From the NCBI RefSeq assembly GCF_024502345.1, contig NZ_JALDNN010000001.1: a stretch of 64,000 nt of DNA. One strand, given 5' to 3'. This DNA is from Escherichia coli. Its GTDB lineage: Bacteria; Pseudomonadota; Gammaproteobacteria; Enterobacterales; Enterobacteriaceae. Positions 1-44,857 of the stretch are shown piece after piece; within the stretch, counting starts at the first letter, position 1, and the number at the start of each line of letters is the position of its first letter. The notes beneath the pieces were generated by a model. The model was not told the origin of the DNA, did not search any database, and worked only from the letters and a program-made list of their open reading frames with translations. The position numbers and the translations under genes are program-made.

Positions 1-932
<932 letters not shown>

Positions 933-2004: not shown

Positions 2005-2010
2005 AACTTT

Positions 2011-2049: not shown

Positions 2050-2052
2050 AAT

Positions 2053-3706: not shown

Positions 3707-3862
3707 GTCATTTTACCTCCAATGGTTGGTATGCCCAATTGTGCCCCCAAAGGCGTATTGATACCAGTAGACTCCGGTTGACCTCAGAATACAAGGAAGG
3801 CTTGATATATAAGGGATGAGAAGAGATTTTGTTGACGTCAGAAGAGTTCAGGAGAGGCTAAT

Positions 3863-12721: not shown

Positions 12722-13588
12722 ATGAAAAAGCGTCGGAAGGAACCGGAAACGCTACGTGAACACTGTCGCCACATTTTTGGTGATGAGCCGCCAGTGCTCT
12801 GTGTATGGGAAACGGAATTTGATTACGCAGATGCCGAACTCAAGGCGCTGGCGGCTAAAGAGTGGCAGCAGATCAGCGAATGGGATTTGAGTGCTTACTA
12901 TGTACTCAATCTCGTTTATAACGAACCGATGCAAATAGAGTTGTTTCGCTATCTGTTTCCGCTCTGCCTGGCGCAATGGCATGAAACCGTTTTAGCTGGC
13001 GGTTATGGTGATCACTTCGAAGAATCCTTAATGAAGGCATTGCGTCGGCCCTATCTCTGGCAGGAGATGATGAATGCTTCCCAACGCCAGCAGGTACGGC
13101 AATTTTTACTGGACACCGCGTTGCAGCGTATGGATAACGAGCGTGGTTTCAATAACGTTCTTTGCTGGCTGGCGGTGTTCAATACTCTGGGTGGGGCCGC
13201 GCCGTTAATTCGTTCTCTCTGGTCGCGCTGGTGGGCGCTGGATACGCCGGGAAAAGCGGTGTGTGCTATTCAGTATGCCGCGCATCTAATTTATCCCATA
13301 GAAGCCAATCCGTTATGGTCGCAAGAATGGATAGGCTGGGGGCATCCATTAGGCCATAAAGATGGCTGGTCCTCTGATAATCGCGCTTTTCTTCGCCAAA
13401 TGTTAACACCTGAAATGATTGTGGCTGGCGTACAGGCAGCGGCTGAAATTCTGCGTGGTGAACCGGAAGGCGCAATGGCGGCGCGAATTGCACAGGATGC
13501 GTATGAGGCAATGGATATCCTCACTATCCAGATTGAAGATTTACTGCGTGACTTGTCTCGTGATGAGTCTGGTCATGCGTTGGAGTAA
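12722..13588 (+). CDS. Hypothetical protein, 288 aa, no recognisable domain; ATG 2 bp after the gltS stop, 3' end overlaps the recG 3' end by 16 bp
   Basis: Long ORF with E. coli-typical codon choice in an intergenic position; not antisense to any known gene. Confidence 0.5.
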   Translation: MKKRRKEPETLREHCRHIFGDEPPVLCVWETEFDYADAELKALAAKEWQQISEWDLSAYYVLNLVYNEPMQIELFRYLFPLCLAQWHETVLAGGYGDHFEESLMKALRRPYLWQEMMNASQRQQVRQFLLDTALQRMDNERGFNNVLCWLAVFNTLGGAAPLIRSLWSRWWALDTPGKAVCAIQYAAHLIYPIEANPLWSQEWIGWGHPLGHKDGWSSDNRAFLRQMLTPEMIVAGVQAAAEILRGEPEGAMAARIAQDAYEAMDILTIQIEDLLRDLSRDESGHALE

Positions 13589-19601: not shown

Positions 19602-21989
<2,388 letters not shown>

Positions 21990-22280: not shown

Positions 22281-22478
22281 CTATTTTTTCTCTGTAATTT
22301 TTACACTGTTTTCCAACTGCTTAATGCTGACCTGCGGGGTCGGCAACTCCTCAGGCATGGTTCCGCCAAGTTCCTGAATGGTTTGCCTCACCTTGCGACC
22401 TACGTCAAAGTGTGTGGTGTTAGCTTGCTGTTTTGAATTCACGCCATCCCGCTTAAGTTTTTCTTCTGTTTGGGTAGC
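22281..22478 (-). pseudogene. dinD: 3'-terminal remnant (about 65 codons) of DNA-damage-inducible gene dinD; 5' two-thirds absent
   Basis: C-terminal part of ORF 22281..22592 (ATQTEEKLKRDGVNSKQQANTTHFDVGRKVRQTIQELGG...KITEKK) matches the recalled DinD C-terminus and sits at the K-12 dinD position between yicC and yicG; the ORF's first 38 residues look non-coding. Confidence 0.55.
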
Positions 22479-22814
22479 TACTTTGAACCGGATAACCTCG
22501 AATGGGTGACTGGTGAGATTGGTGCGCCGCCGTTCGATGTGTCGGGTGTGGCCTACCTGCTTCATGGCATGGTGTCGTTCGATAAGCGCCACCAGATCGA
22601 ATCAACCCGGCGCACACTGGAAAGCATGGTTGCTGGTGGACTGCTTGAGCGGGTGACAGTGTATGAATCGCGCCAGATACGGCGCGGCGGTGAGACTAAC
22701 GCAACGGTCGTGCGCTACGGTTTACCCGGTCAGTGCGCTGTTATGCGCGATACTGGCGGCGCTGATAGCCTGGCTGATTCCGGTAATACTGCGGAGTTAG
22801 GTCTACCGGCATAG
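22470..22814 (+). CDS. Hypothetical 114-aa ORF inside the dinD islet; possibly a 5'-truncated gene
   Basis: ORF only; protein-like composition; no recognisable family. Confidence 0.25.
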   Translation: MGSYFEPDNLEWVTGEIGAPPFDVSGVAYLLHGMVSFDKRHQIESTRRTLESMVAGGLLERVTVYESRQIRRGGETNATVVRYGLPGQCAVMRDTGGADSLADSGNTAELGLPA

Positions 22815-22858
22815 CTTACCCGTGGAGAAATGAATCATCGAATGAGTTTGGTCGGGAG

Positions 22859-23539
22859 TTATTCCACCAGCAAAAATGGCGTTGCCCGGTCTATGACGTT
22901 GATGCCAATTAACGAGCTAACATTTCGACCATTCACAATGCTATCCCGTTCAAGCAAATGCGCTATTTTTTCTACTTCATACCAGTATTGAGCCATGAGG
23001 GCTTTGGTCTTTTCAACGAGTTTAGAAAGCATTAACTCCCTGTTAATTTGCTTATTTGTAGCGCAGATTAAATCGAGCATGTCATTTACGTTAGCCATGT
23101 CATAGCGATGAGGTAGCGAATACTTTTTGTTGAAAATATCGTTGTTTTCGTAAAGGGCTTCGCTTACTGGTCCGGCGAGGGATACAAAAGCGGCCTTTTT
23201 TGCATCGCGCTTTATACCATCCGCATAGTAACGTATGAAAGGGATAACTTTACCATTCTGCCCAACTACACCAGATTTACTATCCCGCAAACGCCCGAGA
23301 TCGTGGCTGTGAATTATGCTGTGTTTAACAACGCCCAAACACTTGGCCTCATGTACATGTTCGCCAGCAACGTAACCGTATTCATCCATAACGGCGATAA
23401 CAATATTGGTTTCACGCCCACCGATATGACCAGGAATAACCGGGACAATTGTGGCAAATTCATTACCGTTAATTGTGCCCTGATAGGCGTTCAGATGAGG
23501 GGCGGCCTCAGAAATTAATCTGCTTTTTTCGATGTTCAT
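22859..23539 (-). CDS. Hypothetical protein (226 aa), cargo of the integrase islet in dinD; no family recognised
   Basis: Uninterrupted ORF with visibly lower GC than the flanking backbone, directly downstream of an intact integrase gene; contains a His cluster (GHIGG, EHVHE, HSIIHSHD). Confidence 0.6.
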   Translation of the reverse strand: MNIEKSRLISEAAPHLNAYQGTINGNEFATIVPVIPGHIGGRETNIVIAVMDEYGYVAGEHVHEAKCLGVVKHSIIHSHDLGRLRDSKSGVVGQNGKVIPFIRYYADGIKRDAKKAAFVSLAGPVSEALYENNDIFNKKYSLPHRYDMANVNDMLDLICATNKQINRELMLSKLVEKTKALMAQYWYEVEKIAHLLERDSIVNGRNVSSLIGINVIDRATPFLLVE

Positions 23540-23761
23540 TTTCAGTCTCCGTTAGGCGGCGGTGAGATTGTCCGGGTACCACATGGTTGACACTTAGATC
23601 CAACACGTAGTCGTACCTATCCAGTGAAAACCATTCCATCACATCGCCGTATTTAGCCCGTTTCATAACGCCACCTTTTACGCTGCGCCTTATTTTGTGA
23701 TTGAGCCAGGCGGTAAGGCTTCCCGCTTTTCGCCCCGTCGGGCTAGACTCAATCTATTCAG

Positions 23762-25021
23762 TTAGTTCGCCCTTCTGAGAGGCGTCACGTTGTAATCTTC
23801 GCCCTTCTCCAGAGCCACCAGCAAGCCCGCCCACTGTGTTAACGCAGCCCGTCGCTCGTCAAAGTATTGGTGACGGTTATAAATCCCCTCTACGCCCTTA
23901 ATGCGATGATTGAGGCATCGTTCCGCCACTACCGGATCAACGCCCAGCGCTGCTAAATGGGTGCGGGCCGTGCGTCGGAAGTCGTGAATCGTGAAATTAG
24001 GCACATCCGGCATTTCGGCGCGAACCTTAGCCAGTGCTACGGGCAGGGTGCTTTCCTGAATATGGGGGATCATGCGGTTTTGCATCTTTCTGGCTGGCAG
24101 TACCCATGCGCTGTTGCATGAGAACGTTTTAAGCTCTCTCAGCCATTCGACGGCTGGCGGTGCTAATGGGATGTCTATAGCGTCGCCGTTTTTGCTGCGT
24201 TCCTCTGGCAAGCGCCATACGGCTTTATCAAAATCGAACTCCTCCCAGCGGGCGGCGCATAACTCCATTTTGCGGACGCATAACGCTAACAGTAATTTGA
24301 ACGTGATTTCGTTCTGGCGACTGAATCCCTTAGCCGTGCGCATGGCTTTGAATAGCTGGATTAACTCATCGCGGGTTAACCAGCGGTCACGGGCAACTTC
24401 TTTCCCTCCGGCGTCTGCCACCTCAAAGGCTGAACAGGGGTTAATCTCCAGCGCGTGCCGTTTGATTCCGTAGTCGAATATGCGGCGCGTCCATCTCAGC
24501 ACGTCCGTTGCTATGGTCGGCGCTCCACGGTCAACAATACTTTTCAGCATGTCGTCGATATGGCGCGGCTTCACGTCCTCTACCTTCATGCTGCCAATGC
24601 AGGGGTTTATATCTTTGTCGATACGGCGGCGGAGTATATCTGGGTGCTTCCAGCGCGGCAGGATCTGACGCTCAAAGTATTCAGCGGCAAGCTCTGAAAC
24701 GCGCATGGCATTCTTCTCTGCTTCGATCTTCGCCAGTGCTTCGGCTTTCCGTTCCTGCTTCTCTCCTGCAACGTCATAGCCCAACGCAACGCGAGCCGAT
24801 AGCTCTTTGGCTGTCTCTCTGGCCTTTGATAGTGATAGCTCGGCATATGAGCCGATAACCATTGCTCGCTGCTTACCTGCGAATTTATAGCGAAAGCGCC
24901 AGAAAGGGACTGTGTAGTTTTTGGGGTAGCAAATATAAAGGCCGTTGCCATCGGCCCTTCCTTCAAATCTATCTCCGGCCTTTATCCATGCGCGGATCTG
25001 CATGTCTGTAATCTTTGGCAT
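23762..25021 (-). CDS. Tyrosine recombinase, phage-type integrase (about 419 aa), apparently intact
   Basis: N-terminal arm-binding region (GNGLYICY...FWRFRYKF) and catalytic residues (HDFRRT ... GIYNRHQY); start placed at MPKITD because the upstream ATG at 25057 lies inside a direct-repeat motif. Confidence 0.85.
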   Translation of the reverse strand: MPKITDMQIRAWIKAGDRFEGRADGNGLYICYPKNYTVPFWRFRYKFAGKQRAMVIGSYAELSLSKARETAKELSARVALGYDVAGEKQERKAEALAKIEAEKNAMRVSELAAEYFERQILPRWKHPDILRRRIDKDINPCIGSMKVEDVKPRHIDDMLKSIVDRGAPTIATDVLRWTRRIFDYGIKRHALEINPCSAFEVADAGGKEVARDRWLTRDELIQLFKAMRTAKGFSRQNEITFKLLLALCVRKMELCAARWEEFDFDKAVWRLPEERSKNGDAIDIPLAPPAVEWLRELKTFSCNSAWVLPARKMQNRMIPHIQESTLPVALAKVRAEMPDVPNFTIHDFRRTARTHLAALGVDPVVAERCLNHRIKGVEGIYNRHQYFDERRAALTQWAGLLVALEKGEDYNVTPLRRAN

Positions 25022-25144
25022 TGCGAATACCTGAACATTGAATGGGGGTGTGTACATAAACCGATGTACATAAAACCCATTATGTACACCACTATGTACA
25101 CGGCAATCGTGCGCTTTGTTGCTTCCTCATGATAGCCCATGATA

Positions 25145-25171
25145 ACAAAAAAGCCCGACAAAATGCGGGCT
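25145..25171 (-). terminator. Rho-independent terminator of yicC
   Basis: GCCCGCATTTTGTCGGGC hairpin followed by a T-run on the minus strand, about 40 bp after the yicC stop. Confidence 0.6.
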
Positions 25172-25210
25172 TTGCTGGTTTTGTGTATCTTTGTGATAGC
25201 TCTTAAATAT

Positions 25211-26074
25211 TTACTCGATATTCTGAATCTGCTCGCGCATCTGCTCAATCAACACTTTCAGCTCAATCGCGGAGTTTGTCACTTCGGCATTGATAGACTT
25301 CGACGCAAGAGTGTTCGACTCGCGGTTGAACTCCTGCATCATAAAGTCCAGACGACGACCAACGGCTTCTTTTTTCTTCAGAATGTTGTAGGTCTCTTTG
25401 ACATGCGCTTCGAGGCGGTCCAGCTCTTCGGCAACGTCAATTCGTTGTGCCAGCAGAACCAACTCCTGCTCCAGACGGTTGTTTTCCAACTGCACCTGAG
25501 CATCTTCCAGCTTCGCGACCAAGCGTTCACGCTGCCATTGCAGGATTTCCGGCATATGGGAGCGGACTTTGACCACTTCGGCGGTGACGCCTTCCAGACG
25601 CTGCTCGATCAATGCTTTCAGTGCCTGACCTTCGGTTTCGCGCGCGACAATAAAGTCGTCCAGGGTGCCATCCAACGCCGCGAGAATTTCAGCGGCAATG
25701 GCGTCAAGATCCTGCTCCTGGGCTGCCATCACGCCCGGCCAGCGCAGAATATCAACCGGGTTGATTTCCCCTTCGTCACTCTGCATTTTTACCCAGTTCG
25801 CGGCAGTTACCAGCTGTTTAGCCAGTTTTTCGTTGAGGATCAGCTCACCTTGCGCGCTAACATCTGGCTCATAGCGCAGGGTACATTCCACTTTACCGCG
25901 CGTCAGGCGAGAACGAATACGCTCACGAACGACAGGTTCAAGGCTACGGAACTGCTCCGGCAGACGAAAGTAAGTTTCCAGATAACGCTGGTTTACCGAG
26001 CGCATTTCCCAGGTTGCGCTCCCCCATTCACCCTTGATTTCACGCCGGGCGTAGGCGGTCATACTGCGGATCAT
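25211..26074 (-). CDS. yicC: YicC-family stress-induced protein (287 aa)
   Basis: Translation matches YicC. Confidence 0.9.
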   Translation of the reverse strand: MIRSMTAYARREIKGEWGSATWEMRSVNQRYLETYFRLPEQFRSLEPVVRERIRSRLTRGKVECTLRYEPDVSAQGELILNEKLAKQLVTAANWVKMQSDEGEINPVDILRWPGVMAAQEQDLDAIAAEILAALDGTLDDFIVARETEGQALKALIEQRLEGVTAEVVKVRSHMPEILQWQRERLVAKLEDAQVQLENNRLEQELVLLAQRIDVAEELDRLEAHVKETYNILKKKEAVGRRLDFMMQEFNRESNTLASKSINAEVTNSAIELKVLIEQMREQIQNIE

Positions 26075-26200
26075 AGACGTTCCTGTTTATAAAAGGAGAG
26101 GTGGAAGGATTATAGCCATCGATGCCTTGTCAGGATAGGAATAACCGCCGGAAGTCCGTATAATGCGCAGCCACATTTGTTTCAAGCCGGAGATTTCAAT

Positions 26201-26917
26201 ATGCGTCCAGCAGGCCGTAGCAATAATCAGGTGCGTCCCGTTACCCTGACTCGTAACTATACAAAACATGCAGAAGGCTCGGTGCTGGTCGAATTTGGCG
26301 ATACCAAAGTATTGTGTACCGCCTCTATTGAAGAAGGCGTGCCTCGCTTCCTGAAAGGTCAGGGCCAGGGCTGGATCACCGCAGAATACGGCATGCTGCC
26401 ACGTTCTACCCACACCCGTAACGCTCGTGAAGCAGCGAAAGGTAAGCAGGGTGGACGCACAATGGAAATCCAGCGTCTGATCGCCCGTGCTCTTCGTGCG
26501 GCAGTAGATTTGAAAGCGCTGGGTGAGTTCACCATTACGCTGGACTGCGACGTGCTTCAGGCTGATGGTGGCACGCGTACCGCTTCGATTACGGGTGCCT
26601 GTGTGGCGCTGGCAGATGCGCTACAGAAGCTGGTGGAAAACGGCAAGCTGAAAACCAATCCAATGAAAGGGATGGTAGCCGCGGTTTCTGTCGGGATTGT
26701 GAACGGCGAAGCGGTTTGCGATCTGGAATACGTTGAAGACTCAGCCGCAGAGACCGACATGAACGTAGTGATGACCGAAGACGGGCGCATCATTGAAGTG
26801 CAGGGGACGGCAGAAGGCGAGCCGTTCACCCATGAAGAGTTACTCACCTTGTTGGCGCTGGCCCGAGGGGGAATCGAATCCATTGTAGCGACGCAGAAGG
26901 CGGCGCTGGCAAACTGA
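26201..26917 (+). CDS. rph: Ribonuclease PH (238 aa), full length
   Basis: Translation matches RNase PH through the C-terminus; start at [10 protein letters not shown]. Confidence 0.9.
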
Positions 26918-26922
26918 TTTTT

Positions 26923-26950
26923 AAGGCGACTGATGAGTCGCCTTTTTTTT
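26923..26950 (+). terminator. rph-pyrE intergenic attenuator/terminator hairpin
   Basis: GGCGACTGATGAGTCGCC stem followed by TTTTTTTT. Confidence 0.75.
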
Positions 26951-26982
26951 GTCTGTAGAAAAGTAAGATGAGGAGCGAAGGC

Positions 26983-27624
26983 ATGAAACCATATCAGCGC
27001 CAGTTTATTGAATTTGCGCTTAGCAAACAGGTATTAAAGTTTGGTGAGTTTACGCTGAAATCCGGGCGCAAAAGCCCCTATTTCTTCAACGCCGGGCTGT
27101 TTAATACCGGGCGCGATCTGGCACTGTTAGGCCGTTTTTACGCTGAAGCATTGGTGGATTCCGGCATTGAGTTCGATCTGCTGTTTGGCCCTGCTTACAA
27201 AGGGATCCCGATTGCTACCACAACCGCCGTGGCGCTGGCGGAGCATCATGACCTGGACCTGCCGTACTGCTTTAACCGCAAAGAGGCAAAAGACCACGGT
27301 GAAGGCGGCAATCTGGTCGGTAGCGCGTTACAAGGACGCGTAATGCTGGTGGATGATGTGATCACCGCCGGAACGGCGATTCGCGAGTCGATGGAAATTA
27401 TTCAGGCCAATGGCGCGACGCTTGCTGGCGTATTGATTTCGCTTGATCGTCAGGAACGCGGGCGCGGCGAGATTTCGGCGATTCAGGAAGTTGAGCGTGA
27501 TTACAACTGCAAGGTGATCTCTATCATTACCCTGAAAGACTTGATTGCTTACCTGGAAGAGAAGCCAGAAATGGCGGAACATCTGGCGGCGGTTAAGGCC
27601 TATCGCGAAGAGTTCGGCGTTTAA
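26983..27624 (+). CDS. pyrE: Orotate phosphoribosyltransferase (213 aa)
   Basis: Translation matches PyrE; start at [11 protein letters not shown]. Confidence 0.9.
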
Positions 27625-27660
27625 AGAAACTCGCCGGATGAAAAGTCATCCGGCGTCATA

Positions 27661-28257
27661 TTACTGCAACTGCGCGGCAATTAGCGGCCAGCGGGCGTCA
27701 AAATCATCCGTCGGGCGGTATTTAAACTCGCTGCGGACAAAGCGTGACAGCATACCTTCACAGAAGGCCAGGATCTGGCTTGCCAGCAGGGTTTCATCGG
27801 TGGTGTAACCTTCACCCTCACGCATTCTCTTTTCACGCAATACCTGGCGCAGCTGCGCTTCAATACGCTCGAACAGCTGGTTGATGCGCCCTTGCAGGCG
27901 ATCCTGTTCAAACATCAGTGCATGACCAGTGAGGATGCGGGTCAGGCCAGGATTACGCTCACCAAAACCGAGAAGCAGCAACACAATCAGACGCAGGCGC
28001 GCTGTGGTGTCTTTCTCATCTTTCAGAATCAGGTTGATGCGAGTAATCAGGCTATCTTCGATAAACTCAATCAGGCTATCGAACATGCGGGTCTTACTGG
28101 GGAAGTGGCGATACAGTGCCGCTTCGGAAACGCCGACAGAGGCGGCCAGTTTTGCCGTCGTGATACGTTGGCTTCCATCGCTGGATTCCAGCATCAGCGC
28201 CAGAGACTGAAGTATTTCTTCGCGACGGTTCCTTTTCGCAGTTTGTTTTTCTGCCAT
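27661..28257 (-). CDS. slmA: Nucleoid occlusion factor SlmA, TetR family (198 aa)
   Basis: Translation matches SlmA; start at [10 protein letters not shown]. Confidence 0.9.
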
Positions 28258-28363
28258 GTTACAAAATACCCCTGAAAATAAGCACTTGCCAGGCGGCACC
28301 CACGCTATGACCGCAAACGAAATGTTTGCGGCTATGTTATGACGTTATTCGGATGCGTATGTG

Positions 28364-28819
28364 TTACTGACGACCAGAGTGACCAAAGCCGCCTTCACCG
28401 CGGTCGGTGGCGTCGAAATCTTCCACCAGATTAAATTCAGCCTGTACTACCGGAACAAAAATCATCTGGGCGATGCGTTCGCCAGGTTGAATGGTGAAGC
28501 TGTCCTGACCACGGTTCCACACGGAAATCATTAACTGGCCCTGATAGTCGGAATCGATCAATCCTACCAGGTTACCAAGCACGATACCGTGCTTATGTCC
28601 CAATCCGGAGCGCGGCAGCATCATTGCCGCCAGTGAAGGATCGGCAATATGAATCGCCAGCCCGGTCGGAACCAGAGTAGTGTCACCCGGAGCCAGTTCT
28701 ACGGCGTCGTCGAGACAGGCACGCAGGTCAAGTCCGGCAGAGCCAGAGGTGGCATAAGTCGGGAGCGGAAATACCTTCCCAACGCGCGGGTCCAGAATCT
28801 TAACGTCGATTTTTTTCAT
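28364..28819 (-). CDS. dut: dUTP diphosphatase (151 aa)
   Basis: Translation matches Dut. Confidence 0.9.
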
Positions 28820-34623: not shown

Positions 34624-35682
34624 GTGGATAAGCCATTTCGAAGAATTTTGCTCATTAAGATGCGTTTTCATGGGGATATGTTATTAACTACTCCCGTCAT
34701 TAGTTCGCTGAAAAAAAATTACCCTGACGCAAAAATCGATGTGCTGCTTTATCAGGACACCATCCCGATCCTGTCTGAAAATCCAGAGATTAACGCGCTC
34801 TACGGCATAAAAAATAAAAAAGCAAAAGCCTCAGAAAAAATTGCCAACTTTTTTCATCTCATCAAGGTATTACGTGCCAATAAGTATGACCTTATCGTCA
34901 ATCTTACCGATCAATGGATGGTTGCTATACTGGTTCGCTTATTAAATGCCCGTGTGAAAATTTCCCAGGATTATCATCATCGGCAGTCTGCTTTTTGGCG
35001 TAAAAGTTTCACCCATTTGGTGCCGTTGCAGGGTGGAAATGTGGTGGAAAGTAACTTATCCGTGCTGACACCATTGGGACTTGATTCGTTGGTGAAGCAG
35101 ACAACCATGAGTTACCCGCCTGCAAGCTGGAAACGTATGCGTCGCGAACTTGATCACGCTGGTGTTGGACAAAATTATGTGGTTATCCAACCTACGGCGC
35201 GGCAAATCTTCAAATGCTGGGACAACGCCAAGTTTTCCGCTGTGATTGATGCCTTACATGCTCGTGGTTATGAAGTCGTTCTGACGTCCGGCCCAGATAA
35301 AGACGATCTGGCCTGCGTCAATGAAATTGCGCAGGGATGCCAGACGCCACCAGTAACGGCGCTGGCTGGAAAGGTGACCTTCCCGGAACTTGGTGCGTTA
35401 ATCGATCATGCGCAGCTGTTTATTGGCGTTGATTCCGCACCGGCGCATATTGCCGCTGCAGTTAATACGCCGCTGATATCGCTGTTTGGTGCGACAGACC
35501 ATATTTTCTGGCGTCCCTGGTCAAATAACATGATTCAATTCTGGGCGGGAGATTACCGGGAAATGCCAACGCGCGATCAGCGTGACCGAAATGAGATGTA
35601 TCTTTCGGTTATTCCGGCGGCAGATGTCATTGCTGCTGTCGATAAATTACTGCCCTCCTCCACGACAGGTACGTCGTTATGA
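34624..35682 (+). CDS. waaQ: LPS core heptosyltransferase III
   Basis: Translation matches WaaQ; exact start uncertain (GTG at 34624 or downstream ATG). Confidence 0.85.
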   Translation: MDKPFRRILLIKMRFHGDMLLTTPVISSLKKNYPDAKIDVLLYQDTIPILSENPEINALYGIKNKKAKASEKIANFFHLIKVLRANKYDLIVNLTDQWMVAILVRLLNARVKISQDYHHRQSAFWRKSFTHLVPLQGGNVVESNLSVLTPLGLDSLVKQTTMSYPPASWKRMRRELDHAGVGQNYVVIQPTARQIFKCWDNAKFSAVIDALHARGYEVVLTSGPDKDDLACVNEIAQGCQTPPVTALAGKVTFPELGALIDHAQLFIGVDSAPAHIAAAVNTPLISLFGATDHIFWRPWSNNMIQFWAGDYREMPTRDQRDRNEMYLSVIPAADVIAAVDKLLPSSTTGTSL

Positions 35683-36803
35683 TCGTTGCTTTTTGTTTAT
35701 ATAAATATTTTCCCTTTGGCGGTTTGCAGCGCGATTTTATGCGTATTGCTCAGACAGTCGCCGCCCGAGGTCATCATGTTCGGGTTTATACCCAGTCGTG
35801 GGAAGGCGAATGCCCTGATGTATTTGAACTGATCAAAGTGCCGGTTAAATCGCATACCAATCACGGGCGCAATGCGGAGTATTTTGCCTGGGTGCAAAAA
35901 CATTTACGCGAACATCCCGTCGATAAAGTCGTTGGATTCAACAAAATGCCGGGGCTGGACGTTTATTATGCCGCTGATGTTTGTTATGCCGAGAAAGTAG
36001 CGCAGGAAAAAGGCTTTTTCTATCGCCTGACGTCACGTTATCGCCATTATGCCGCCTTTGAGCGGGCAACCTTCGAACAGGGCAAGCCGACACAGCTGCT
36101 GATGCTGACAGATAAGCAAATCGCCGATTTCCGGAAACATTATCAGACTGAAGCGGAGCGTTTTCATATTCTGCCACCGGGGATTTATCCTGATCGTAAA
36201 TATAGCCAGCAGCCAGCCAATAGCCGTGAAATCTTCCGTAAGAAGAATGGAATAACCGAACAACAATATTTATTGTTGCAGGTCGGTTCAGACTTCACGC
36301 GTAAAGGTGTCGATCGTTCCATTGAAGCACTTGCTTCGTTACCGGATTCGCTGCGCCACAACACATTGCTATATGTTGTTGGGCAGGATAAACCGCGAAA
36401 ATTTGAGGCACTGGCAGAAAAACGCGGCGTGCGCAGTAATGTTCACTTCTTCTCGGGGCGCAACGATGTCTCGGAATTAATGGCGGCGGCGGATTTATTA
36501 CTGCATCCTGCCTACCAGGAAGCGGCGGGAATTGTGCTGCTGGAAGCGATTACTGCAGGATTACCGGTACTAACAACTGCCGTTTGTGGCTATGCGCATT
36601 ATATTGTCGACGCTAATTGCGGCGAGGCTATTGCTGAGCCATTCCGCCAGGAAACATTGAATGAGATTTTACGCAAAGCGTTAACGCAATCTTCATTGCG
36701 CCAGGCTTGGGCGGAAAATGCGCGACATTATGCTGATACACAAGATTTATACAGTCTGCCAGAGAAAGCGGCGGATATCATAACGGGTGGTCTGGATGGT
36801 TGA
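35679..36803 (+). CDS. waaG: LPS core glucosyltransferase I, GT4 (374 aa)
   Basis: Translation matches WaaG. Confidence 0.9.
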
Positions 36804-37593
36804 ACTTAAAGAGCCGTTTGCCACGTTATGGCGCGGCAAAGATCCTTTTGAGGAAGTTAAAACCTTGCAGGGTGAGGTATTTCGTGAACTGGAAACTCGC
36901 CGTACTCTGCGCTTCGAAATGGCGGGCAAAAGCTATTTTCTCAAATGGCATCGCGGCACGACCCTGAAAGAGATAATCAAAAATTTACTCTCATTGCGGA
37001 TGCCAGTATTAGGCGCAGACCGCGAATGGGATGCGATTCATCGACTGCGGGATGTCGGCGTTGATACTATGTATGGGGTGGCATTCGGCGAAAAAGGCAT
37101 GAATCCGCTGACCAGAACCTCGTTTATTATTACCGAAGATCTGACACCAACCATCAGTCTGGAAGATTACTGTGCTGACTGGGCGACCAACCCACCAGAT
37201 GTTCGCGTAAAGCGTATGCTTATTAAGCGTGTCGCGACGATGGTGCGCGATATGCATGCTGCGGGCATTAACCATCGTGACTGTTATATCTGTCATTTCC
37301 TGCTGCACTTGCCTTTTTCCGGTAAGGAAGAGGAGTTAAAAATTTCGGTAATTGACCTACACCGGGCGCAGCTTCGCACGCGCGTTCCACGTCGTTGGCG
37401 CGATAAAGATCTTATAGGGCTTTATTTTTCTTCAATGAATATTGGCCTGACTCAGCGGGATATCTGGCGCTTTATGAAGGTGTATTTTGCCGCCCCGCTT
37501 AAAGACATTCTCAAGCAGGAACAAGGACTGCTGTCGCAAGCAGAAGCAAAAGCCACAAAAATCAGGGAAAGAACGATTCGAAAATCGTTGTAA
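36796..37593 (+). CDS. waaP: LPS core heptose(I) kinase (265 aa)
   Basis: Translation matches WaaP. Confidence 0.9.
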
Positions 37594-37635
37594 CCCGTAA
37601 CTTATTTTTGCCAAAATTTTGGATACAGAATAAAT

Positions 37636-38643
37636 ATGTCTCAACTCAATGATAGTGACATCATCCTTTTTGAGTATAATTTTCATTATCAAAATATAAG
37701 ATCTAAAAATACTCTTGATATAGCATTTGGTATTGACAGAAATTTTCTTTTTGGATGTGGTGTAGCCATCGCATCTATTCTATTAAACAATAGAGAAATC
37801 TCTTGTGAATTTCATGTTTTCACAGATTATATCAGTGATAAAGACAAATTATATTTTTCTGATTTAGCAAAACAATATAATTCAAGAATTAATATTTATG
37901 TTATCAATTGTGATAAGCTGAAGTCATTACCAAGCACGAAAAACTGGACTTACGCAACATATTTTCGATTTATAATTGCAGATTATTTCTATCATAAACA
38001 TGAAAAAATACTATATCTTGATGCAGATATTGCTTGCAAGGGTAGTATTAAAGAACTCTTAGATTATCAATTTTCTACTAATGAAATTGCCGCAGTTGTA
38101 GCTGAAAGAGATGTTGAATGGTGGCAAAATCGAGCCTCGGTATTAACTACACCACAGTTAGCTTCTGGATATTTCAATGCTGGTTTTTTACTGATAAATA
38201 TTGATGAGTGGAATCTAAATAACATTTCGTCAAAAGCTATTGAAATGTTGCGTGACCCAGATTGGGTAAGTAAAATCACCCACCTTGATCAAGATGTACT
38301 GAATGTATTATTGAATGGTAAAGTGAAGTTTATTTCGGAGAAATATAATACCCGATATAGTATTAACTATGAATTAAAAGACAAAGTTGATAATCCAGTC
38401 AATGATGACACCGTGTTTATACACTATGTGGGACCTACAAAACCCTGGCATGAGTGGGCTGACTATCCGGTGTCACGTAGTTTTTTGATCGCCAAAGCAG
38501 CTTCTCCGTGGAGTAAAGAAGATTTACTTAAACCTGTAAATAGCAATCAGTATCGGTATTGTGCAAAACATAAATTTAAACAAAAGCATTATATGGCAGG
38601 CATTTTTAATTATTTAAAGTATTATAAAGAAAAATGCTTCTAA
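37636..38643 (+). CDS. LPS core glycosyltransferase, family GT8 (335 aa); WaaI-like by position
   Basis: GT8-type sequence features; low-GC variable part of the waa cluster; specific name from gene order only. Confidence 0.7.
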   Translation: MSQLNDSDIILFEYNFHYQNIRSKNTLDIAFGIDRNFLFGCGVAIASILLNNREISCEFHVFTDYISDKDKLYFSDLAKQYNSRINIYVINCDKLKSLPSTKNWTYATYFRFIIADYFYHKHEKILYLDADIACKGSIKELLDYQFSTNEIAAVVAERDVEWWQNRASVLTTPQLASGYFNAGFLLINIDEWNLNNISSKAIEMLRDPDWVSKITHLDQDVLNVLLNGKVKFISEKYNTRYSINYELKDKVDNPVNDDTVFIHYVGPTKPWHEWADYPVSRSFLIAKAASPWSKEDLLKPVNSNQYRYCAKHKFKQKHYMAGIFNYLKYYKEKCF

Positions 38644-38668
38644 AGATTTAAGGTTAAAATAATTCATT

Positions 38669-39376
38669 ATGATATATAATAAAACGATAAATGGGTTGAA
38701 AGTTTTCATAAAAGATAATGATCCCTTTTATGAGCAAGTTCTAAATGACTTTTTAACTTGCAGGGTTAAAACATTAAAAGTTTTTCGTTCTATTGATGAT
38801 ACTAAAGTCATTCTTATTGACACTGCTCGTGGACCTCTTGTACTTAAAGTTTATGCACCAAAGCATAAAATGACCGAACGTTTCTTAAAATCTTGCATAA
38901 AAAAAGATTATTATGAAAATTTAATTTATCAAACCGATCGGGTACGTGGTGAAGGCATCCAATCAATTAATGACTATTTTTTGCTAGCTGAACGTAAAAC
39001 ATTAAATTTCGCTCATTATTATATTATGCTCATTGAGTATATTGAAGGTGTCGGGTTAAATGAGTATTTGGAAATTTCTGAAGATCTGAAGGATCAATTA
39101 TCAGAATCGATAAAAGAGTTGCATCAGCATGGAATGGTGTCTGGCGATCCTCATAAAGGAAATTTTATAGTATCCGAAAAAGGTTTAAGACTAATTGACC
39201 TTTCAGGTAAAAAAACAACCGCTGTTTTAAAAGCAAAAGATCGCATTGATCTTGAACGGCACTATAATATAAAAAATGAATTGAAAGACTTTGGCTATAC
39301 ATATCTTATATTCAAAAAGAAAATTAAAAAAGTAATCAGGGATGTAAAAGTCAAACTAGGATTGAAGAGCAAATAA
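38669..39376 (+). CDS. waaY: LPS core heptose(II) kinase (235 aa)
   Basis: Translation shares conserved blocks with WaaY (KVFRSIDDTKV, HQHGMVSGDPH.GNF, RIDLERHY). Confidence 0.8.
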   Translation: MIYNKTINGLKVFIKDNDPFYEQVLNDFLTCRVKTLKVFRSIDDTKVILIDTARGPLVLKVYAPKHKMTERFLKSCIKKDYYENLIYQTDRVRGEGIQSINDYFLLAERKTLNFAHYYIMLIEYIEGVGLNEYLEISEDLKDQLSESIKELHQHGMVSGDPHKGNFIVSEKGLRLIDLSGKKTTAVLKAKDRIDLERHYNIKNELKDFGYTYLIFKKKIKKVIRDVKVKLGLKSK

Positions 39377-39400
39377 TGATTATGATGAAGGGTAATTAAA

Positions 39401-40414
39401 TTGGATTTTAAACATCTTACTCAATTTAAAGATATAATTGAACTGGACAAGCGCCCCGTTAAACTTGATGAACGGGAAACGTTTAATGTCTCATGGGGTA
39501 TTGATGAGAACTACCAGGTTGGGGCTGCGATTTCAATTGCTTCAATTCTTGAAAATAATAAACAAAACAAATTTACCTTTCACATAATCGCTGATTACTT
39601 AGACAAAGAGTATATTGAATTATTATCACAATTAGCAACGAAGTATCAAACAGTAATTAAATTATATCATATTGATTCTGAGCCATTGAAGGCGCTACCT
39701 CAATCAAATATCTGGCCAGTATCTATTTATTATCGTTTGCTTTCATTTGATTATTTTTCTGCGCGATTGGATTCATTATTATATCTTGATGCTGATATCG
39801 TCTGTAAGGGTTCATTGAACGAGTTAATAGCATTAGAGTTTAAAGATGAATATGGGGCAGTGGTAATTGATGTAGATGCTATGCAAAGTAAAAGCGCTGA
39901 GCGTTTGTGTAATGAGGATTTTAACGGTAGCTATTTTAACTCTGGTGTAATGTATATTAATTTACGGGAATGGTTAAAACAAAGACTAACGGAAAAATTC
40001 TTTGATCTATTATCAGATGAGTCAATTATAAAAAAATTAAAGTACCCGGATCAAGATATTTTAAACTTAATGTTTCTACATCATGCTAAAATATTACCGA
40101 GAAAATATAATTGTATTTATACTATAAAGTCAGAATTTGAAGAAAAAAATAGTGAATATTACACCCGGTTTATTAATGATGACACTGTCTTCATACATTA
40201 TACTGGTATAACTAAGCCATGGCATGATTGGGCGAACTACGCCTCTGCAGATTATTTTCGTAATATTTATAATATATCACCATGGAGAAATATACCTTAT
40301 AAAAAAGCTGTTAAAAAACATGAGCACAAAGAAAAATATAAACACTTGCTTTACCAGAAAAAATTTCTCGATGGTGTTTTTACAGCAATTAAATATAATG
40401 TTATGAAAGGTTAA
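39401..40414 (+). CDS. LPS core glycosyltransferase, family GT8 (337 aa); WaaJ-like by position
   Basis: Paralogous to the GT8 at 37636; specific name from gene order only. Confidence 0.7.
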   Translation: MDFKHLTQFKDIIELDKRPVKLDERETFNVSWGIDENYQVGAAISIASILENNKQNKFTFHIIADYLDKEYIELLSQLATKYQTVIKLYHIDSEPLKALPQSNIWPVSIYYRLLSFDYFSARLDSLLYLDADIVCKGSLNELIALEFKDEYGAVVIDVDAMQSKSAERLCNEDFNGSYFNSGVMYINLREWLKQRLTEKFFDLLSDESIIKKLKYPDQDILNLMFLHHAKILPRKYNCIYTIKSEFEEKNSEYYTRFINDDTVFIHYTGITKPWHDWANYASADYFRNIYNISPWRNIPYKKAVKKHEHKEKYKHLLYQKKFLDGVFTAIKYNVMKG

Positions 40415-40422
40415 TATACGAG

Positions 40423-41565
40423 ATGGTTGATAAAATAATATTTACGGTTACTCCTATTTTTTCAATTCCTCCTCGCGGAGCGGCTGCTGTTGAAACGTGG
40501 ATGTATCAGGTTGCTCAGCGTACCAATTTTCCAAATCGTATTGTTTGTATCAAAAATCCAGGATACTCAAATTACACCTTTGTTAATGATAATTGTAGTA
40601 TTCATAGGGTTGGATTCAGTCGCATATATAAGCGGTTATTTCAAAAATGGACAAGACTTGATCCTCTTCCATATTCACAGAGAATATTGAATATTGCACA
40701 TGATTTTCCTATAACGAAAGAAAGTGTTATTGTAGTTCATAATAGCATGAAGCTATACACTCAAATTCGTAAGCGAGCTCCTCAGGCAAGAGTGGTTATA
40801 CATATGCATAATGCATTTGAACCAAAATTGCTTGAGCAAAATGTTAAAATGATAGTGCCTAGTTTATACTTGAAAAAGTATTACCAATCTTATTTAGCAA
40901 ATGCAGATATTGAGATTGTACCAAATGGAATTGATTTAGAAACCTATCAATCTAATTTTCAGCCGATCACTAGAAGCGAACTTAATATCTCCCCTGAAGA
41001 GAAAATTATTTTTTATGCTGGGCGTATCGTCCCTGACAAAGGCATATTGCTGTTGATGCAATCATTCGAAAAATTGGCCGCTGCTCACAAAAATTTAAAA
41101 TTAGTTGTGATTGGTGATTATACAGAAATGAGTAAAAGTGACAAAGGTGCATATCAACGCAATGTCAGGGAAATTGCAAAACGTTTGAAGGATCGTTGCA
41201 TTATGTTAGGAAGCATACCGCCTGAAAAGATGCATTGTTATTACCCACTGGCAGATTTAGTCGTCATTCCTTCCCAGTTCCAGGAACCATTTTGCATGGT
41301 GGCAATTGAAGCTATGGGTGCTGGTAAGCCTGTTTTAGTGAGTACGCGTGGGGGGATGACGGAATTTGTCAAAGAAAATACTACGGGATTCCATTTAAAA
41401 GAACCTATGACTGCAGACTCCATAAGCAGCGATATTTTAAAAACGTTAGCGAATCCTGAATTAACAGCAGTTGCAAAGCAAGGTCAGGACTTTGTGTTTA
41501 ATCACTACAGTTGGGATGGCGTAACTCAAAGATTCGAAGAGGTTATTCATAATTGGTTTGAATAA
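40423..41565 (+). CDS. LPS outer-core glycosyltransferase, family GT4 (380 aa); WaaD/WaaK-like by position
   Basis: GT4 C-terminal signature (PSQFQEPFCMVAIEAMGAGKPVLVS); last gene of the long waa operon. Confidence 0.7.
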   Translation: MVDKIIFTVTPIFSIPPRGAAAVETWMYQVAQRTNFPNRIVCIKNPGYSNYTFVNDNCSIHRVGFSRIYKRLFQKWTRLDPLPYSQRILNIAHDFPITKESVIVVHNSMKLYTQIRKRAPQARVVIHMHNAFEPKLLEQNVKMIVPSLYLKKYYQSYLANADIEIVPNGIDLETYQSNFQPITRSELNISPEEKIIFYAGRIVPDKGILLLMQSFEKLAAAHKNLKLVVIGDYTEMSKSDKGAYQRNVREIAKRLKDRCIMLGSIPPEKMHCYYPLADLVVIPSQFQEPFCMVAIEAMGAGKPVLVSTRGGMTEFVKENTTGFHLKEPMTADSISSDILKTLANPELTAVAKQGQDFVFNHYSWDGVTQRFEEVIHNWFE

Positions 41566-41600
41566 ATAAAAAGGCCGCATTATGCAGCCTTTTTTATTTT

Positions 41601-42809
41601 TTACTTGTTTTTCATCGCTAATAATAAGCCGGCGTAAACGCCTAATAAATTTGGTTCAATTTGTTCTACGTTTCCACGGATAACAAAATAACCTATAAAA
41701 GATAGTAAGATTATATAATATGCATTATATGGTGAGCGATATTTATTCTTGACACCATTTTTTATACACTCTTTCAATATTGCACAGTATAGCATCATAA
41801 GACTTACCAGCCCTAATAAACCAGTGCCAAACCAGATGAATAGCGCAAAATTATGTGGCCCTATTGATTGTCTAAAGGTCCATTCTGGATAATCAATGAC
41901 ACGTTTATTATAGACATCTTTATATGCAACGTTACCGTAACCATAACCAATAACAGGATTTTCTAATATTAGATCGAGTGCGCTGCCTTGAGTACCATTT
42001 GCATAGCGATAAGAACTATTAGTTTGTTGAAGTTTATACGTTAGCTTTGCGGTCATCTCCTTATGTGTGAAAATAACCGACAATGCAATGATGGCAACCA
42101 TTACTCCTACTAATAGTAACTTCCATTGTTTAAACATCAGAATCCATATTAATCCAATGACTAACACGGAAAGCCAGGCCCCTCTGGATAAAGTTCCTAA
42201 TATCAGAAAAATAAAAATAACGCTTAGAACCACAAAAGAAATGCGGTATTTTGCTGATTTGATAAGCCAGAGATTTAACAATGCAGGGAATAAAAAGACC
42301 ATCGAGTCAGAAATGCTACGGTGTCTATAATCTGCGAATGGCATTATCCCTTGTTGATAGTCCTTATAATAGGTAATCAATTCAGAAAAACAGCGTAAGC
42401 CCAACGCACTAATAAATGAGAAGAAAACGATTTTTTCGACATCTTCTCTTTTCTCGTCTCTCAATATGATCGGTATTGCTATTGTGCATAGTAAAGTATT
42501 CTCAATAATAGCTTTGAAAATTTCCTTCATGCTAGCACCTGCATCAGGGGATTGAAGAAGTGACAGCAATGCAGCAATAGTTAATATGGCAACACTACCA
42601 AAAAGAAATGTTTTAAATAGTGAGAGATAGTGTTTTGGCCGTTTGCAGAGATAGACGATTGTCGTTATTGTCATAAGAATAACAATAAGATGTTTATACC
42701 TTGTAATCCCACCCAAAAAATAGGTGGTAATGAATAAGAATACGAGAGCTCTGTTCCAGTACGCTATCCAGTTTTTTTTCTCGAGAGAGAAAAATAATGT
42801 TGAGGTCAT
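41601..42809 (-). CDS. waaL: O-antigen ligase (402 aa), polytopic membrane protein
   Basis: Highly hydrophobic, low-GC ORF convergent with the waaQ operon and upstream of waaC. Confidence 0.8.
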   Translation of the reverse strand: MTSTLFFSLEKKNWIAYWNRALVFLFITTYFLGGITRYKHLIVILMTITTIVYLCKRPKHYLSLFKTFLFGSVAILTIAALLSLLQSPDAGASMKEIFKAIIENTLLCTIAIPIILRDEKREDVEKIVFFSFISALGLRCFSELITYYKDYQQGIMPFADYRHRSISDSMVFLFPALLNLWLIKSAKYRISFVVLSVIFIFLILGTLSRGAWLSVLVIGLIWILMFKQWKLLLVGVMVAIIALSVIFTHKEMTAKLTYKLQQTNSSYRYANGTQGSALDLILENPVIGYGYGNVAYKDVYNKRVIDYPEWTFRQSIGPHNFALFIWFGTGLLGLVSLMMLYCAILKECIKNGVKNKYRSPYNAYYIILLSFIGYFVIRGNVEQIEPNLLGVYAGLLLAMKNK

Positions 42810-43798
42810 CTTATCTCCGATGTCAATTTATTGGTTATTATTTCAAGATTTAAATTTTGAAAAACGGTTTGAGCTGGCAAATCTGCAAGAGACATACTTG
42901 TAGAACGACACTCTACTTGATTCTTCCCATACCCACCAATTAATCCCGGATCGGTTGGTCCATAAACCGTGATATTGGGTCTATCCAGTGCCGCCGTTAA
43001 ATGGCTTAACCCCGTATCCACCGACACTACAAATTTAGCCCCGGCCAGCACGCGGGCAACGCCTTCCAGACTCATCTTCGGCAATACTTCAACATAAGCA
43101 AATCCTTCCGCCAGTCGTTTCGCCCGTTCTTCCTCATGCGGCGCGCCCCACGGAAGTTTAATCCGTATTCCTGAATCAGCCAGTAAACCAATCAATTCTC
43201 GCCAGTGTTCTTCCGGCCAGTGTTTATCATCACGGGTCGTCGCATGAAGAAATACGGCATATTCGCCAGCATCTGTAGGCAGGTTCGTCAGAAAATGCTG
43301 TGCGATAGCATAATCGCCCTGGGTTTGCGGTTTGCTATAGCCCAAACTTTTGGCAAACAGTTCGCGGGTGCGTTCTACGGCGTGCTGCTGTTTTGCAATA
43401 TGATGCTTACGATTGTAAAACAGGCTGGCTAAAGGTTCGCGAGCGGTTTGCCAGTCCATGCCATGCTTTACGCCATGCGCCAGACGCGTCACCAGCGCCG
43501 CGCTTTTTACCAGCCCCTGAGCGTCGATAACTGCGTCATAGTTCTCTGCTTGTAGCGCTTCACGAAACGCTTTGCGTTCAGCTTTTATAGGGGCCGAGAA
43601 CCAGGCTTTACGCCAGCGACGTATTGCCACAGGAATAACTCGCTCAACGGCAGCGTGCCAGGAAGGAATCTGTGCGAACCCTTCTTCCACCACCCAGTCA
43701 AACTTAATTTCTGGGATTGCCTGCTGGGCATCAGTGAGTGCGGGCAACGTATGGAGAACATCGCCCATCGACGATGTTTTAACGATCAAAACCCGCAT
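42806..43798 (-). CDS. waaC: LPS heptosyltransferase I (330 aa); C-terminus differs from the K-12 protein
   Basis: Translation matches WaaC over most of its length, then diverges (...GYGKNQVECRSTSMSLADLP...). Confidence 0.9.
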   Translation of the reverse strand: MRVLIVKTSSMGDVLHTLPALTDAQQAIPEIKFDWVVEEGFAQIPSWHAAVERVIPVAIRRWRKAWFSAPIKAERKAFREALQAENYDAVIDAQGLVKSAALVTRLAHGVKHGMDWQTAREPLASLFYNRKHHIAKQQHAVERTRELFAKSLGYSKPQTQGDYAIAQHFLTNLPTDAGEYAVFLHATTRDDKHWPEEHWRELIGLLADSGIRIKLPWGAPHEEERAKRLAEGFAYVEVLPKMSLEGVARVLAGAKFVVSVDTGLSHLTAALDRPNITVYGPTDPGLIGGYGKNQVECRSTSMSLADLPAQTVFQNLNLEIITNKLTSEIR

Positions 43799-43801
43799 CC
43801 G

Positions 43802-44848
43802 TCAGGCTTCCTCTTGTAACAATAGCGCGTTGAGTTCTTCCAGTACGCGCTGGGGAGTAATGTCGATCAAGCTCTGGTGATAACCCTCCGCAGCGTCACC
43901 TTTACGCACTTTGTGATAGCCGGTAATCAGGCGGATCACGCGCGCTTTATGGGATAGCGGCGGTGTGAAGTCCGGGCTACTCGGACCATACAGGGCAACC
44001 AGCGGACGATTGAGCGCCGCCGCAACGTGCATCAGGCCAGAATCGTTAGTGACAATGGCTTTACAGGCTGCAATCAGGATAACCGCTTGATCAAGCTGTG
44101 TTTCCCCCGCCAGGTTCCGACACCATGCCTGCTGCTCGGTATTCAAAGCGGCAAGAATCTCATTGCCTGCTTCATGATCTTTCGCCGAGCCAAACAGAAC
44201 CACCTGATAACCTTCATCAATCAGCTGCTTTGCCAGCTCCGCATAGTGGTAGTGTGGCCAGCGTTTTGCCGGACCAAACTCCGCACCCGGGCAAAAACCA
44301 ATCATCGGACGTTCTGATGAAAGCGAAAATTGATTACAGGTATATGATTTTTCACCTTCGCTCACCTGCAACTGCGGCCATAACAATGGCTGCGGCAGAT
44401 CTTGTGCTGTGCGCATAATGCCTTTGTCATAGGCCAGCGCGACATAGCGTTCCACCATTAGCGGCCAGGCTTCTTTATCGAGCACGCGTACATCGTTGAG
44501 TAAACCGTAGCGCATCTCGCCGCGCCAGCCGGTGCGATGAGGAATACCCGCGAAGAAAGGCACTAATGCGGATTTGAAGGAGTTGGGTAAGACGTAGGCG
44601 CGGTCGTAGCGCTTTTCACGCAGGCTATGACCCAGTTTGCGGCGTTCGCCGATTTCCAGCGCTCCGTGACCGAGAGGCATAGGGATAGCTTCGTTAACTT
44701 CCGGCATCCGCGATAATAATGGACGGCACCATGCCGGTGCCATCACATCGATTATCGCCTGGGGATAGCGCGCCTGGAGCGTGCGATAGAGACTTTGCGA
44801 CATCATCATGTCGCCAACCCAAGACGGGCCGATCACCAGTATTTTCAT
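43802..44848 (-). CDS. waaF: LPS heptosyltransferase II (348 aa)
   Basis: Translation matches WaaF. Confidence 0.9.
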   Translation of the reverse strand: MKILVIGPSWVGDMMMSQSLYRTLQARYPQAIIDVMAPAWCRPLLSRMPEVNEAIPMPLGHGALEIGERRKLGHSLREKRYDRAYVLPNSFKSALVPFFAGIPHRTGWRGEMRYGLLNDVRVLDKEAWPLMVERYVALAYDKGIMRTAQDLPQPLLWPQLQVSEGEKSYTCNQFSLSSERPMIGFCPGAEFGPAKRWPHYHYAELAKQLIDEGYQVVLFGSAKDHEAGNEILAALNTEQQAWCRNLAGETQLDQAVILIAACKAIVTNDSGLMHVAAALNRPLVALYGPSSPDFTPPLSHKARVIRLITGYHKVRKGDAAEGYHQSLIDITPQRVLEELNALLLQEEA

Positions 44849-44857
44849 GCAGAGCTC

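What the first reader, a model, noticed from the sequence alone, without database searches (positions are those of the whole stretch)
26201..26950. rph is full length, unlike MG1655
RNase PH reads through to its natural C-terminus and the rph-pyrE attenuator is intact, so this strain does not carry the K-12 rph-1 frameshift. Useful as a strain-background marker, not novel.
Basis: partly seen in the sequence, partly recalled or inferred. Interest (0 to 1): 0.15.

Follow-up and report, generated by a model that had tools for sequence, protein, structure and literature searches.

The report
Intact rph-pyrE operon, non-K-12 E. coli
This is the normal, full-length RNase PH gene followed by the normal pyrE attenuator, as in about 97% of complete E. 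coli genomes; only the MG1655/W3110 laboratory lineage carries the one-base deletion, so the finding is correct but ordinary.

Summary
Confirmed and ordinary. rph lies at window 26201..26917 (+). It encodes 238 aa and ends at its natural TGA. It matches the RNase PH equivalog TIGR01966 end to end (380.8 bits, cut-off 141.5).

Aligned with MG1655, the window has five G at 26867..26871 where MG1655 has four. That missing G is the rph-1 deletion, which gives MG1655 a 228-aa product ending ...GESNPL*. The window reads ...[16 protein letters not shown].

The 65 nt between the rph stop and the pyrE ATG (26983) are identical to MG1655. They include the terminator hairpin 26923..26944 and its T8 tract. 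So the attenuator is intact, but it is intact in MG1655 too. What differs is where rph translation stops: 5 nt before the hairpin here, 34 nt before it in rph-1.

The 5-G allele occurs in 5244 of 5426 complete E. coli genomes. The 4-G allele occurs in 169, and every named strain in the 60 rows shown is a K-12 laboratory derivative.

The window is not K-12: rph carries 15 substitutions and the flanks are 98.2% identical. The marker therefore adds almost nothing.

Side notes: a small integrase islet sits after yicC, a 1,093-bp deletion truncates dinD, and an island sits at selC.

The parts
26201..26917 (+). rph, full-length RNase PH (238 aa plus TGA)
   Evidence: ORF and translation. TIGR01966 at 380.8 bits against a cut-off of 141.5, covering profile positions 1-235 of 236. 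PF01138 and PF03725. The DNA is 100% identical to the gene annotated rph / WP_001247093.1 in NZ_CP050998.1.
26867..26871 (+). Run of five G (nt 667-671 of rph); MG1655 has four here, which is the rph-1 deletion
   Evidence: Alignment A1, the only indel in 891 nt; sequence check.
26886..26888 (+). TAG that is out of frame here; it is the premature stop used in rph-1 strains
   Evidence: Direct reading of the sequence and the MG1655 translation ending ...GESNPL*.
26915..26917 (+). Natural rph stop codon TGA, 5 nt upstream of the attenuator hairpin
26923..26950 (+). pyrE attenuator: intrinsic terminator, stem AAGGCGACT / AGTCGCCTT with loop GATG, then a T tract running to 26950
   Evidence: Terminator scan: 9 pairs, 5 of them G-C. 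The RNA fold of 26880..26960 contains this hairpin; MFE -28.8 kcal/mol, z = -3.2. Identical to MG1655.
26972..26977 (+). GAGGAG, the likely pyrE ribosome-binding site
   Evidence: Direct reading; the position 5 nt before the ATG is an inference.
26983..27624 (+). pyrE, orotate phosphoribosyltransferase (213 aa)
   Evidence: TIGR00336 at 240.6 bits against a cut-off of 106.8; PF00156. The pyrE start is annotated at the equivalent position in the 100%-identical stretch of NZ_CP050998.1.
27632..27655 (-). G+C-rich hairpin between the convergent genes pyrE and slmA (terminator-like)
   Evidence: Terminator scan, 10 pairs; function inferred.
25211..26074 (-). yicC, the divergent neighbour of rph; the 126-nt intergenic region is identical to MG1655 over the aligned part
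   Evidence: PF03755 and PF08340; alignment.

Best explanation
The region is the wild-type rph-pyrE operon of a natural, non-K-12 E. coli. rph encodes a complete 238-aa RNase PH, a phosphorolytic 3'-5' exoribonuclease that trims tRNA 3' ends. Its last codons also serve as the leader of the pyrE attenuator. The rph stop codon lies 5 nt before the terminator hairpin, so a ribosome that keeps up with RNA polymerase covers the 5' arm of the hairpin. This suppresses termination and lets transcription continue into pyrE. According to the published model, the ribosome catches up when UTP is scarce and the polymerase lags. In rph-1 strains translation stops 29 nt earlier, the hairpin always forms, and pyrE is under-expressed. 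That defect is absent here. Shown here: the intact frame, the family membership, the identity of the attenuator to the K-12 one, the distances, and the allele frequencies. Inferred from the literature: the enzymatic activity and the UTP-dependent coupling mechanism.
For: The frame is intact and the G5 run is present. The match to RNase PH models is full length, and the protein aligns over residues 2-237 with the solved P. aeruginosa RNase PH 1r6l, with [12 protein letters not shown] conserved exactly and the DSAAETD stretch identical. The protein differs from repaired K-12 RNase PH at only two positions, V138A and I216T. The same protein accession, WP_001247093.1, is annotated as ribonuclease PH in two independent complete genomes. 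All 65 intergenic nt are identical to MG1655, where the attenuator was characterised. The hairpin was found by the terminator scan and by folding. The 5-G 31-mer is in 5244 of 5426 genomes and the 4-G 31-mer in 169. rph is 238 aa in the five contigs that include the gene; three of these are 100% identical to the window wherever they align. The mechanism and the rph-1 phenotype are described in PMC2784333, PMC11148124 and PMC6941894, which cite Jensen 1993 (PMID 8501045) and Bonekamp et al. 1984 (PMID 6098450).
Against: Nothing in the sequence argues against it. Activity and regulation were not measured. The primary papers (Jensen 1993, Bonekamp 1984) were not held in the library, so the mechanism is cited second-hand. 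No Rfam family covers this attenuator, so there is no independent covariance-model test.
Confidence: 0.97

Rival explanations
1. rph has an open frame, but the protein is inactive because of the two substitutions relative to K-12 (A138, T216).
For: There are two amino-acid differences from K-12 RNase PH.
Against: The same protein, WP_001247093.1, occurs in unrelated complete genomes. The P. aeruginosa enzyme has Ile and Ala at these two positions, so they vary among family members; the conserved motifs are unchanged. The score against TIGR01966 is far above the cut-off.
Confidence: 0.02
2. The fifth G is a homopolymer sequencing or assembly error, and the strain really carries rph-1.
For: The difference lies in a homopolymer run, the kind of site where long-read assemblies make errors.
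Against: The 5-G state is in 5244 of 5426 genomes. Independent assemblies are 100% identical to the window across rph (L005, L007, L010; H1). The window differs from K-12 at 15 other positions in rph, so it is not of the lineage in which rph-1 arose.
Confidence: 0.005
3. The window is from a K-12 derivative that kept or regained rph+ (like JM83 or DH5alpha), so the marker separates K-12 sub-lineages.
For: rph+ K-12 strains exist (PMC11148124; DH5alpha row).
Against: Identity to MG1655 is 98.2% over the 4 kb around rph and 98.0-99.0% over the next 17 kb. There is an integrase islet after yicC, an island at selC and an extra ORF between gltS and recG, all absent from MG1655. The best matches are natural isolates.
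Confidence: 0.005

Closest known systems
E. coli RNase PH, protein WP_001247093.1 (e.g. strains F8704-2 and SCEC020007)
   Same: The 921 nt covering rph and its flanks are identical in DNA to F8704-2. The same protein accession is annotated in both genomes.
   Different: Nothing in rph. The rest of the window differs from F8704-2: 99.4% and 98.4% identity in the flanks, plus the islet after yicC.
K-12 wild-type rph+ (UniProt P0CG18, as in JM83; PMC11148124)
   Same: Same length, the same C-terminus [16 protein letters not shown], and the same attenuator.
   Different: Fifteen nucleotide substitutions in the first 666 nt, two of them non-synonymous (V138A, I216T).
rph-1 allele of MG1655 / W3110 (Jensen 1993, PMID 8501045)
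   Same: Same locus, same promoter region and same attenuator sequence.
   Different: rph-1 lacks one G of the G5 run, reads GESNPL and stops at a TAG 29 nt upstream of the natural stop. It gives a 228-aa inactive protein and low pyrE expression. The window has none of this.
82-bp rph-pyrE deletion, the compensatory allele of evolved MG1655 lines (PMC2784333; seen here in NBRC 3301)
   Same: Same operon. Like the wild type, this allele brings the end of rph translation close to the attenuator.
   Different: The window has no deletion. NBRC 3301 lacks the rph 3' end and its rph is annotated as partial.

Membership tests
Ribonuclease PH (NCBIfam TIGR01966; Pfam PF01138 + PF03725) | Full-length match to the equivalog model above its curated cut-off | tested here: met
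   380.8 bits against 141.5, residues 2-236 on profile positions 1-235 of 236.
Ribonuclease PH (NCBIfam TIGR01966; Pfam PF01138 + PF03725) | Both RNase PH domains present, including the C-terminal helix region that rph-1 lacks | tested here: met
   PF01138 at residues 10-140 and PF03725 at 157-222. The alignment with 1r6l extends to residue 237.
Ribonuclease PH (NCBIfam TIGR01966; Pfam PF01138 + PF03725) | Conserved phosphate-binding and catalytic motifs (GGTRTAS; acidic residues in DSAAETD). The motif roles come from my own knowledge of RNase PH structures. | tested here: met
   Both stretches are identical to the solved P. aeruginosa enzyme in the printed alignment.
Ribonuclease PH (NCBIfam TIGR01966; Pfam PF01138 + PF03725) | Phosphorolytic 3'-5' exonuclease activity | not testable with these tools
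   Needs an enzyme assay.
rph-1 allele (MG1655/W3110) | Loss of one G-C pair from the G5 run at nt 667-671 of rph | tested here: not met
   The window has GGGGG at 26867..26871 and MG1655 has GGGG.
rph-1 allele (MG1655/W3110) | In-frame premature TAG giving a 228-aa product | tested here: not met
   The TAG at 26886..26888 is out of frame and the product is 238 aa.
pyrE intercistronic attenuator (UTP-sensitive coupling of rph translation to transcription) | Intrinsic terminator between rph and pyrE | tested here: met
   Hairpin 26923..26944 plus T tract.
pyrE intercistronic attenuator (UTP-sensitive coupling of rph translation to transcription) | The upstream reading frame ends immediately before the hairpin | tested here: met
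   The stop at 26915..26917 is 5 nt before the stem. In rph-1 the distance is 34 nt.
pyrE intercistronic attenuator (UTP-sensitive coupling of rph translation to transcription) | Sequence identity to the experimentally studied K-12 attenuator | tested here: met
   65 of 65 intergenic nt are identical to MG1655.
pyrE intercistronic attenuator (UTP-sensitive coupling of rph translation to transcription) | Read-through rises when UTP falls | not testable with these tools
   Needs in vivo or in vitro transcription assays.

The most novel reading that the evidence does not exclude
The most novel reading left open is that natural variation at this locus tunes pyrE read-through or RNase PH activity between E. 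coli lineages. The variation seen here is the A138/T216 protein variant, and in other isolates a missing C in the 3' arm of the hairpin or a T9 tract. The window itself carries the canonical attenuator, so at most it would be the reference state.
Probability: 0.03. Interest if true: 0.15.

Novelty: already known. Interest (0 to 1): 0.03.

Why it matters
It matters very little. It tells an annotator that rph should be called a functional 238-aa gene rather than a pseudogene. It also predicts that pyrimidine biosynthesis in this strain is not handicapped as it is in MG1655, W3110 and BW25113. As a strain marker it only excludes the MG1655/W3110 laboratory lineage, which the 2% sequence divergence and the different gene content already exclude.

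Tried and rejected
1. I looked for any other frameshift or length change between the window and MG1655 across 26120..27010. There is none apart from the G run.

2. I scanned 25000..28500 against Rfam at E <= 1 for a curated attenuator or leader family. There were no matches.

3. I tried to read the primary papers: Jensen 1993 (PMC204738), Bonekamp 1984 (PMC557777) and a PMC id recalled for the Turnbough & Switzer 2008 review (PMC2415746). None is held, so I cited secondary sources that summarise them.

4. The sigma-70 scan did not call the rph promoter. A TATAAT at 26159..26164 is visible by eye, but no good -35 lies at a 16-18 nt spacing, so I make no promoter claim. The region is identical to MG1655 anyway.

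5. I considered that F8704-2 is the source strain because rph is 100% identical. I rejected this because the flanks are only 98.4-99.4% identical and F8704-2 has no islet.

6. I scanned the 226-aa ORF beside the integrase against Pfam, PHROGs and PADLOC as a possible defence gene. PHROGs and PADLOC gave nothing, and Pfam gave only one marginal match to an unrelated eukaryotic domain. A homology search shows it is a chimera of two known gene types.

Full report
**Observation**

The window has an open reading frame from ATG 26201 to TGA 26915..26917, which is 238 codons plus the stop. The finding's end coordinate, 26950, is the last T of the T tract that follows a hairpin at 26923..26944. So the coordinates delimit rph plus the pyrE attenuator exactly.

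The protein matches the RNase PH equivalog model TIGR01966 from end to end. The score is 380.8 bits against a cut-off of 141.5, E = 1.9e-114, covering profile positions 1-235 of 236. It carries both Pfam RNase PH domains. It also aligns over residues 2-237 with the solved P. aeruginosa enzyme 1r6l, with the GGTRTAS and DSAAETD stretches unchanged.

The next gene, 26983..27624, is pyrE (TIGR00336, 240.6 bits).

**Comparison with MG1655**

I fetched NC_000913.3 3813500..3819500, where rph is annotated as 'truncated RNase PH', and aligned it with window 26120..27010.

- There is one indel: GGGGG at window 26867..26871 (nt 667-671 of rph) against GGGG in MG1655.
- MG1655 rph translates to 228 aa ending ...ALARGESNPL*.
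- The window translates to 238 aa ending ...[20 protein letters not shown].
- Adding one G back to the MG1655 sequence restores that same C-terminus.
- Otherwise there are 15 substitutions in the first 666 nt of rph. Two change the protein: V138A and I216T, K-12 residue first.
- The yicC-rph intergenic region and all 65 nt between the rph stop and the pyrE ATG are identical in the two strains.

**How it works**

The hairpin AAGGCGACT-GATG-AGTCGCCTT followed by a T tract is a canonical intrinsic terminator. It is the dominant local structure when 26880..26960 is folded as RNA (MFE -28.8 kcal/mol, z = -3.2).

The natural rph stop codon lies 5 nt upstream of the stem. The TAG used in rph-1 strains, at window 26886..26888 and out of frame here, lies 34 nt upstream.

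The published model is attributed to Bonekamp et al. 1984 and Jensen 1993, and is summarised in PMC2784333, PMC11148124 and PMC6941894. It holds that transcription past this attenuator needs a ribosome translating the end of rph close behind RNA polymerase. Translation that stops early uncouples the two, termination prevails, and pyrE is under-expressed. That gives the partial pyrimidine starvation of MG1655, W3110 and BW25113.

The distances measured here fit that model. The regulation itself is taken from the literature, not shown here.

The attenuator is just as intact in MG1655. What differs is the position of the stop codon, not the attenuator sequence.

**How common is this allele?**

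I designed two 31-nt queries so that every 28-nt megablast word spans the G run.

- The 5-G query hit 5244 of 5426 complete E. coli genomes.
- The 4-G (rph-1) query hit 169 genomes. Sixty of these were listed. The named ones are K-12 laboratory strains or derivatives: MG1655, BW25113, J53, HMS174, MFDpir and DSM 498.
- The whole 921-nt region is present in 5424 of 5426 genomes.
- The K-12 strain NBRC 3301 carries the known compensatory 82-bp deletion instead (PMC2784333).

The intact state is therefore the species norm. Its absence is the peculiarity of one laboratory lineage.

**Strain background**

The window is not K-12. Identity to MG1655 is 98.2% around rph and 98.0-99.0% further on, and gene content differs, as listed below.

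The rph region is 100% identical to E. coli O39:NM F8704-2, but the flanks are only 98.4-99.4% identical. Draft and metagenome contigs are 100% identical to the window over about 9.6 kb around rph, except for one deletion. An example is GCA_036619395.1 JAZJVH010000009.1, locus L005. rph is 238 aa in the five of these contigs that include the gene.

**Rivals**

- Inactivation by the two missense changes is unlikely. The same protein accession occurs in unrelated complete genomes, and both positions vary in the P. aeruginosa enzyme.
- A homopolymer sequencing error is excluded for practical purposes by independent identical assemblies and by the non-K-12 background.
- A K-12 rph+ sub-lineage is excluded by the divergence.

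**Seen in passing**

1. Integrase islet after yicC. Homology to MG1655 and F8704-2 breaks exactly after the yicC stop codon, at window 25211. In the closest relatives a 2,981-bp islet sits there, and its far end repeats 10 nt of the yicC 3' end (CAGATTCAGA).
   - It carries a tyrosine integrase at 23762..25057, minus strand, with Arm-DNA-bind_3, Phage_int_M and Phage_integrase domains.
   - It also carries a 226-aa ORF at 22859..23539, minus strand. Its first ~48 residues are 98% identical to AntA/AntB antirepressors. The rest is up to 98% identical to 223-aa proteins that NCBI names 'peptidase M41 family protein'.
   - Strain ET979 has a ~14-kb island with a P4-family primase at the same site. 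The window's islet consists mostly of pieces of it, plus 626 nt (22768..23393) with no match there.
2. dinD truncation. Relative to the otherwise identical contigs, the window lacks 1,093 bp (L005 6066..7158; junction at window 22475..22479). The deletion removes the end of the islet and the first 626 nt of dinD.
3. ligB is split by an internal stop (19688..20731 and 20728..21375). It is annotated as a pseudogene in F8704-2.
4. Island at selC. K-12 homology ends 15 nt past selC (3863..3957, minus strand). Beyond it lie an integrase fragment, a full integrase, a 5'-nucleotidase and an IS transposase.
5. A 288-aa ORF with no Pfam domain lies between gltS and recG (12722..13588). It is absent from MG1655.
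6. The attenuator varies slightly in other isolates. One strain lacks a C in the 3' arm and another has nine T.

**Verdict**

The observation and the interpretation are both correct. The feature is textbook and is the majority state of the species. Interest is minimal.

Noticed in passing
window 22480..25210: Remnant of an integrase islet inserted exactly after the yicC stop codon. It carries a tyrosine integrase (23762..25057, minus strand) and a 226-aa chimeric ORF (22859..23539, minus strand). The ORF joins the first ~48 residues of an AntA/AntB antirepressor to a 'peptidase M41 family protein'. Strain ET979 has a ~14-kb island with a P4-family primase at the same site. In the closest relatives the islet is 2,981 bp and ends with a 10-nt repeat of the yicC 3' end.
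   Followed up: partly
window 22475..22479 (junction): A 1,093-bp deletion relative to contigs that are otherwise 100% identical (e.g. GCA_036619395.1). It removes the end of the islet and the first 626 nt of dinD. Only the last ~199 nt of dinD remain, so dinD is a truncated pseudogene here. No complete RefSeq E. coli genome shows this exact configuration.
   Followed up: partly
window 19688..21375: ligB is split by an internal stop into two overlapping ORFs (19688..20731 and 20728..21375). The gene is annotated as a pseudogene with an internal stop in F8704-2 and is also split in related contigs.
   Followed up: partly
window 1..3957: Island at tRNA-Sec (selC, 3863..3957, minus strand). Homology to K-12 ends 15 nt past selC. 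Beyond it lie an integrase fragment with only the arm-binding domain (3254..3706), a full integrase (2053..3267), a PF06189 5'-nucleotidase (1039..2004) and a DDE transposase (33..785).
   Followed up: partly
window 12722..13588: A 288-aa ORF with no Pfam domain sits between gltS and recG and overlaps the recG 3' end by 16 nt. MG1655 has only about 170 nt here. F8704-2 annotates it as a hypothetical protein (WP_000747329.1).
   Followed up: no
L011 (SCEC020007) and L012 (PRO_A-2567-6M-A), aligned to window 26940..26950: The pyrE attenuator varies naturally in other isolates. One lacks a C in the 3' arm of the hairpin and another has nine T instead of eight. The effect on pyrE read-through is unknown.
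   Followed up: no
window 34624..45790: The LPS core (waa/rfa) cluster aligns without a break with that of F8704-2, whose annotated genes include waaO, rfaY, a galactosyl-LPS alpha-1,2-glucosyltransferase and an N-acetylglucosaminyltransferase. The cluster could serve as a marker of strain background; the core type was not determined.
   Followed up: no
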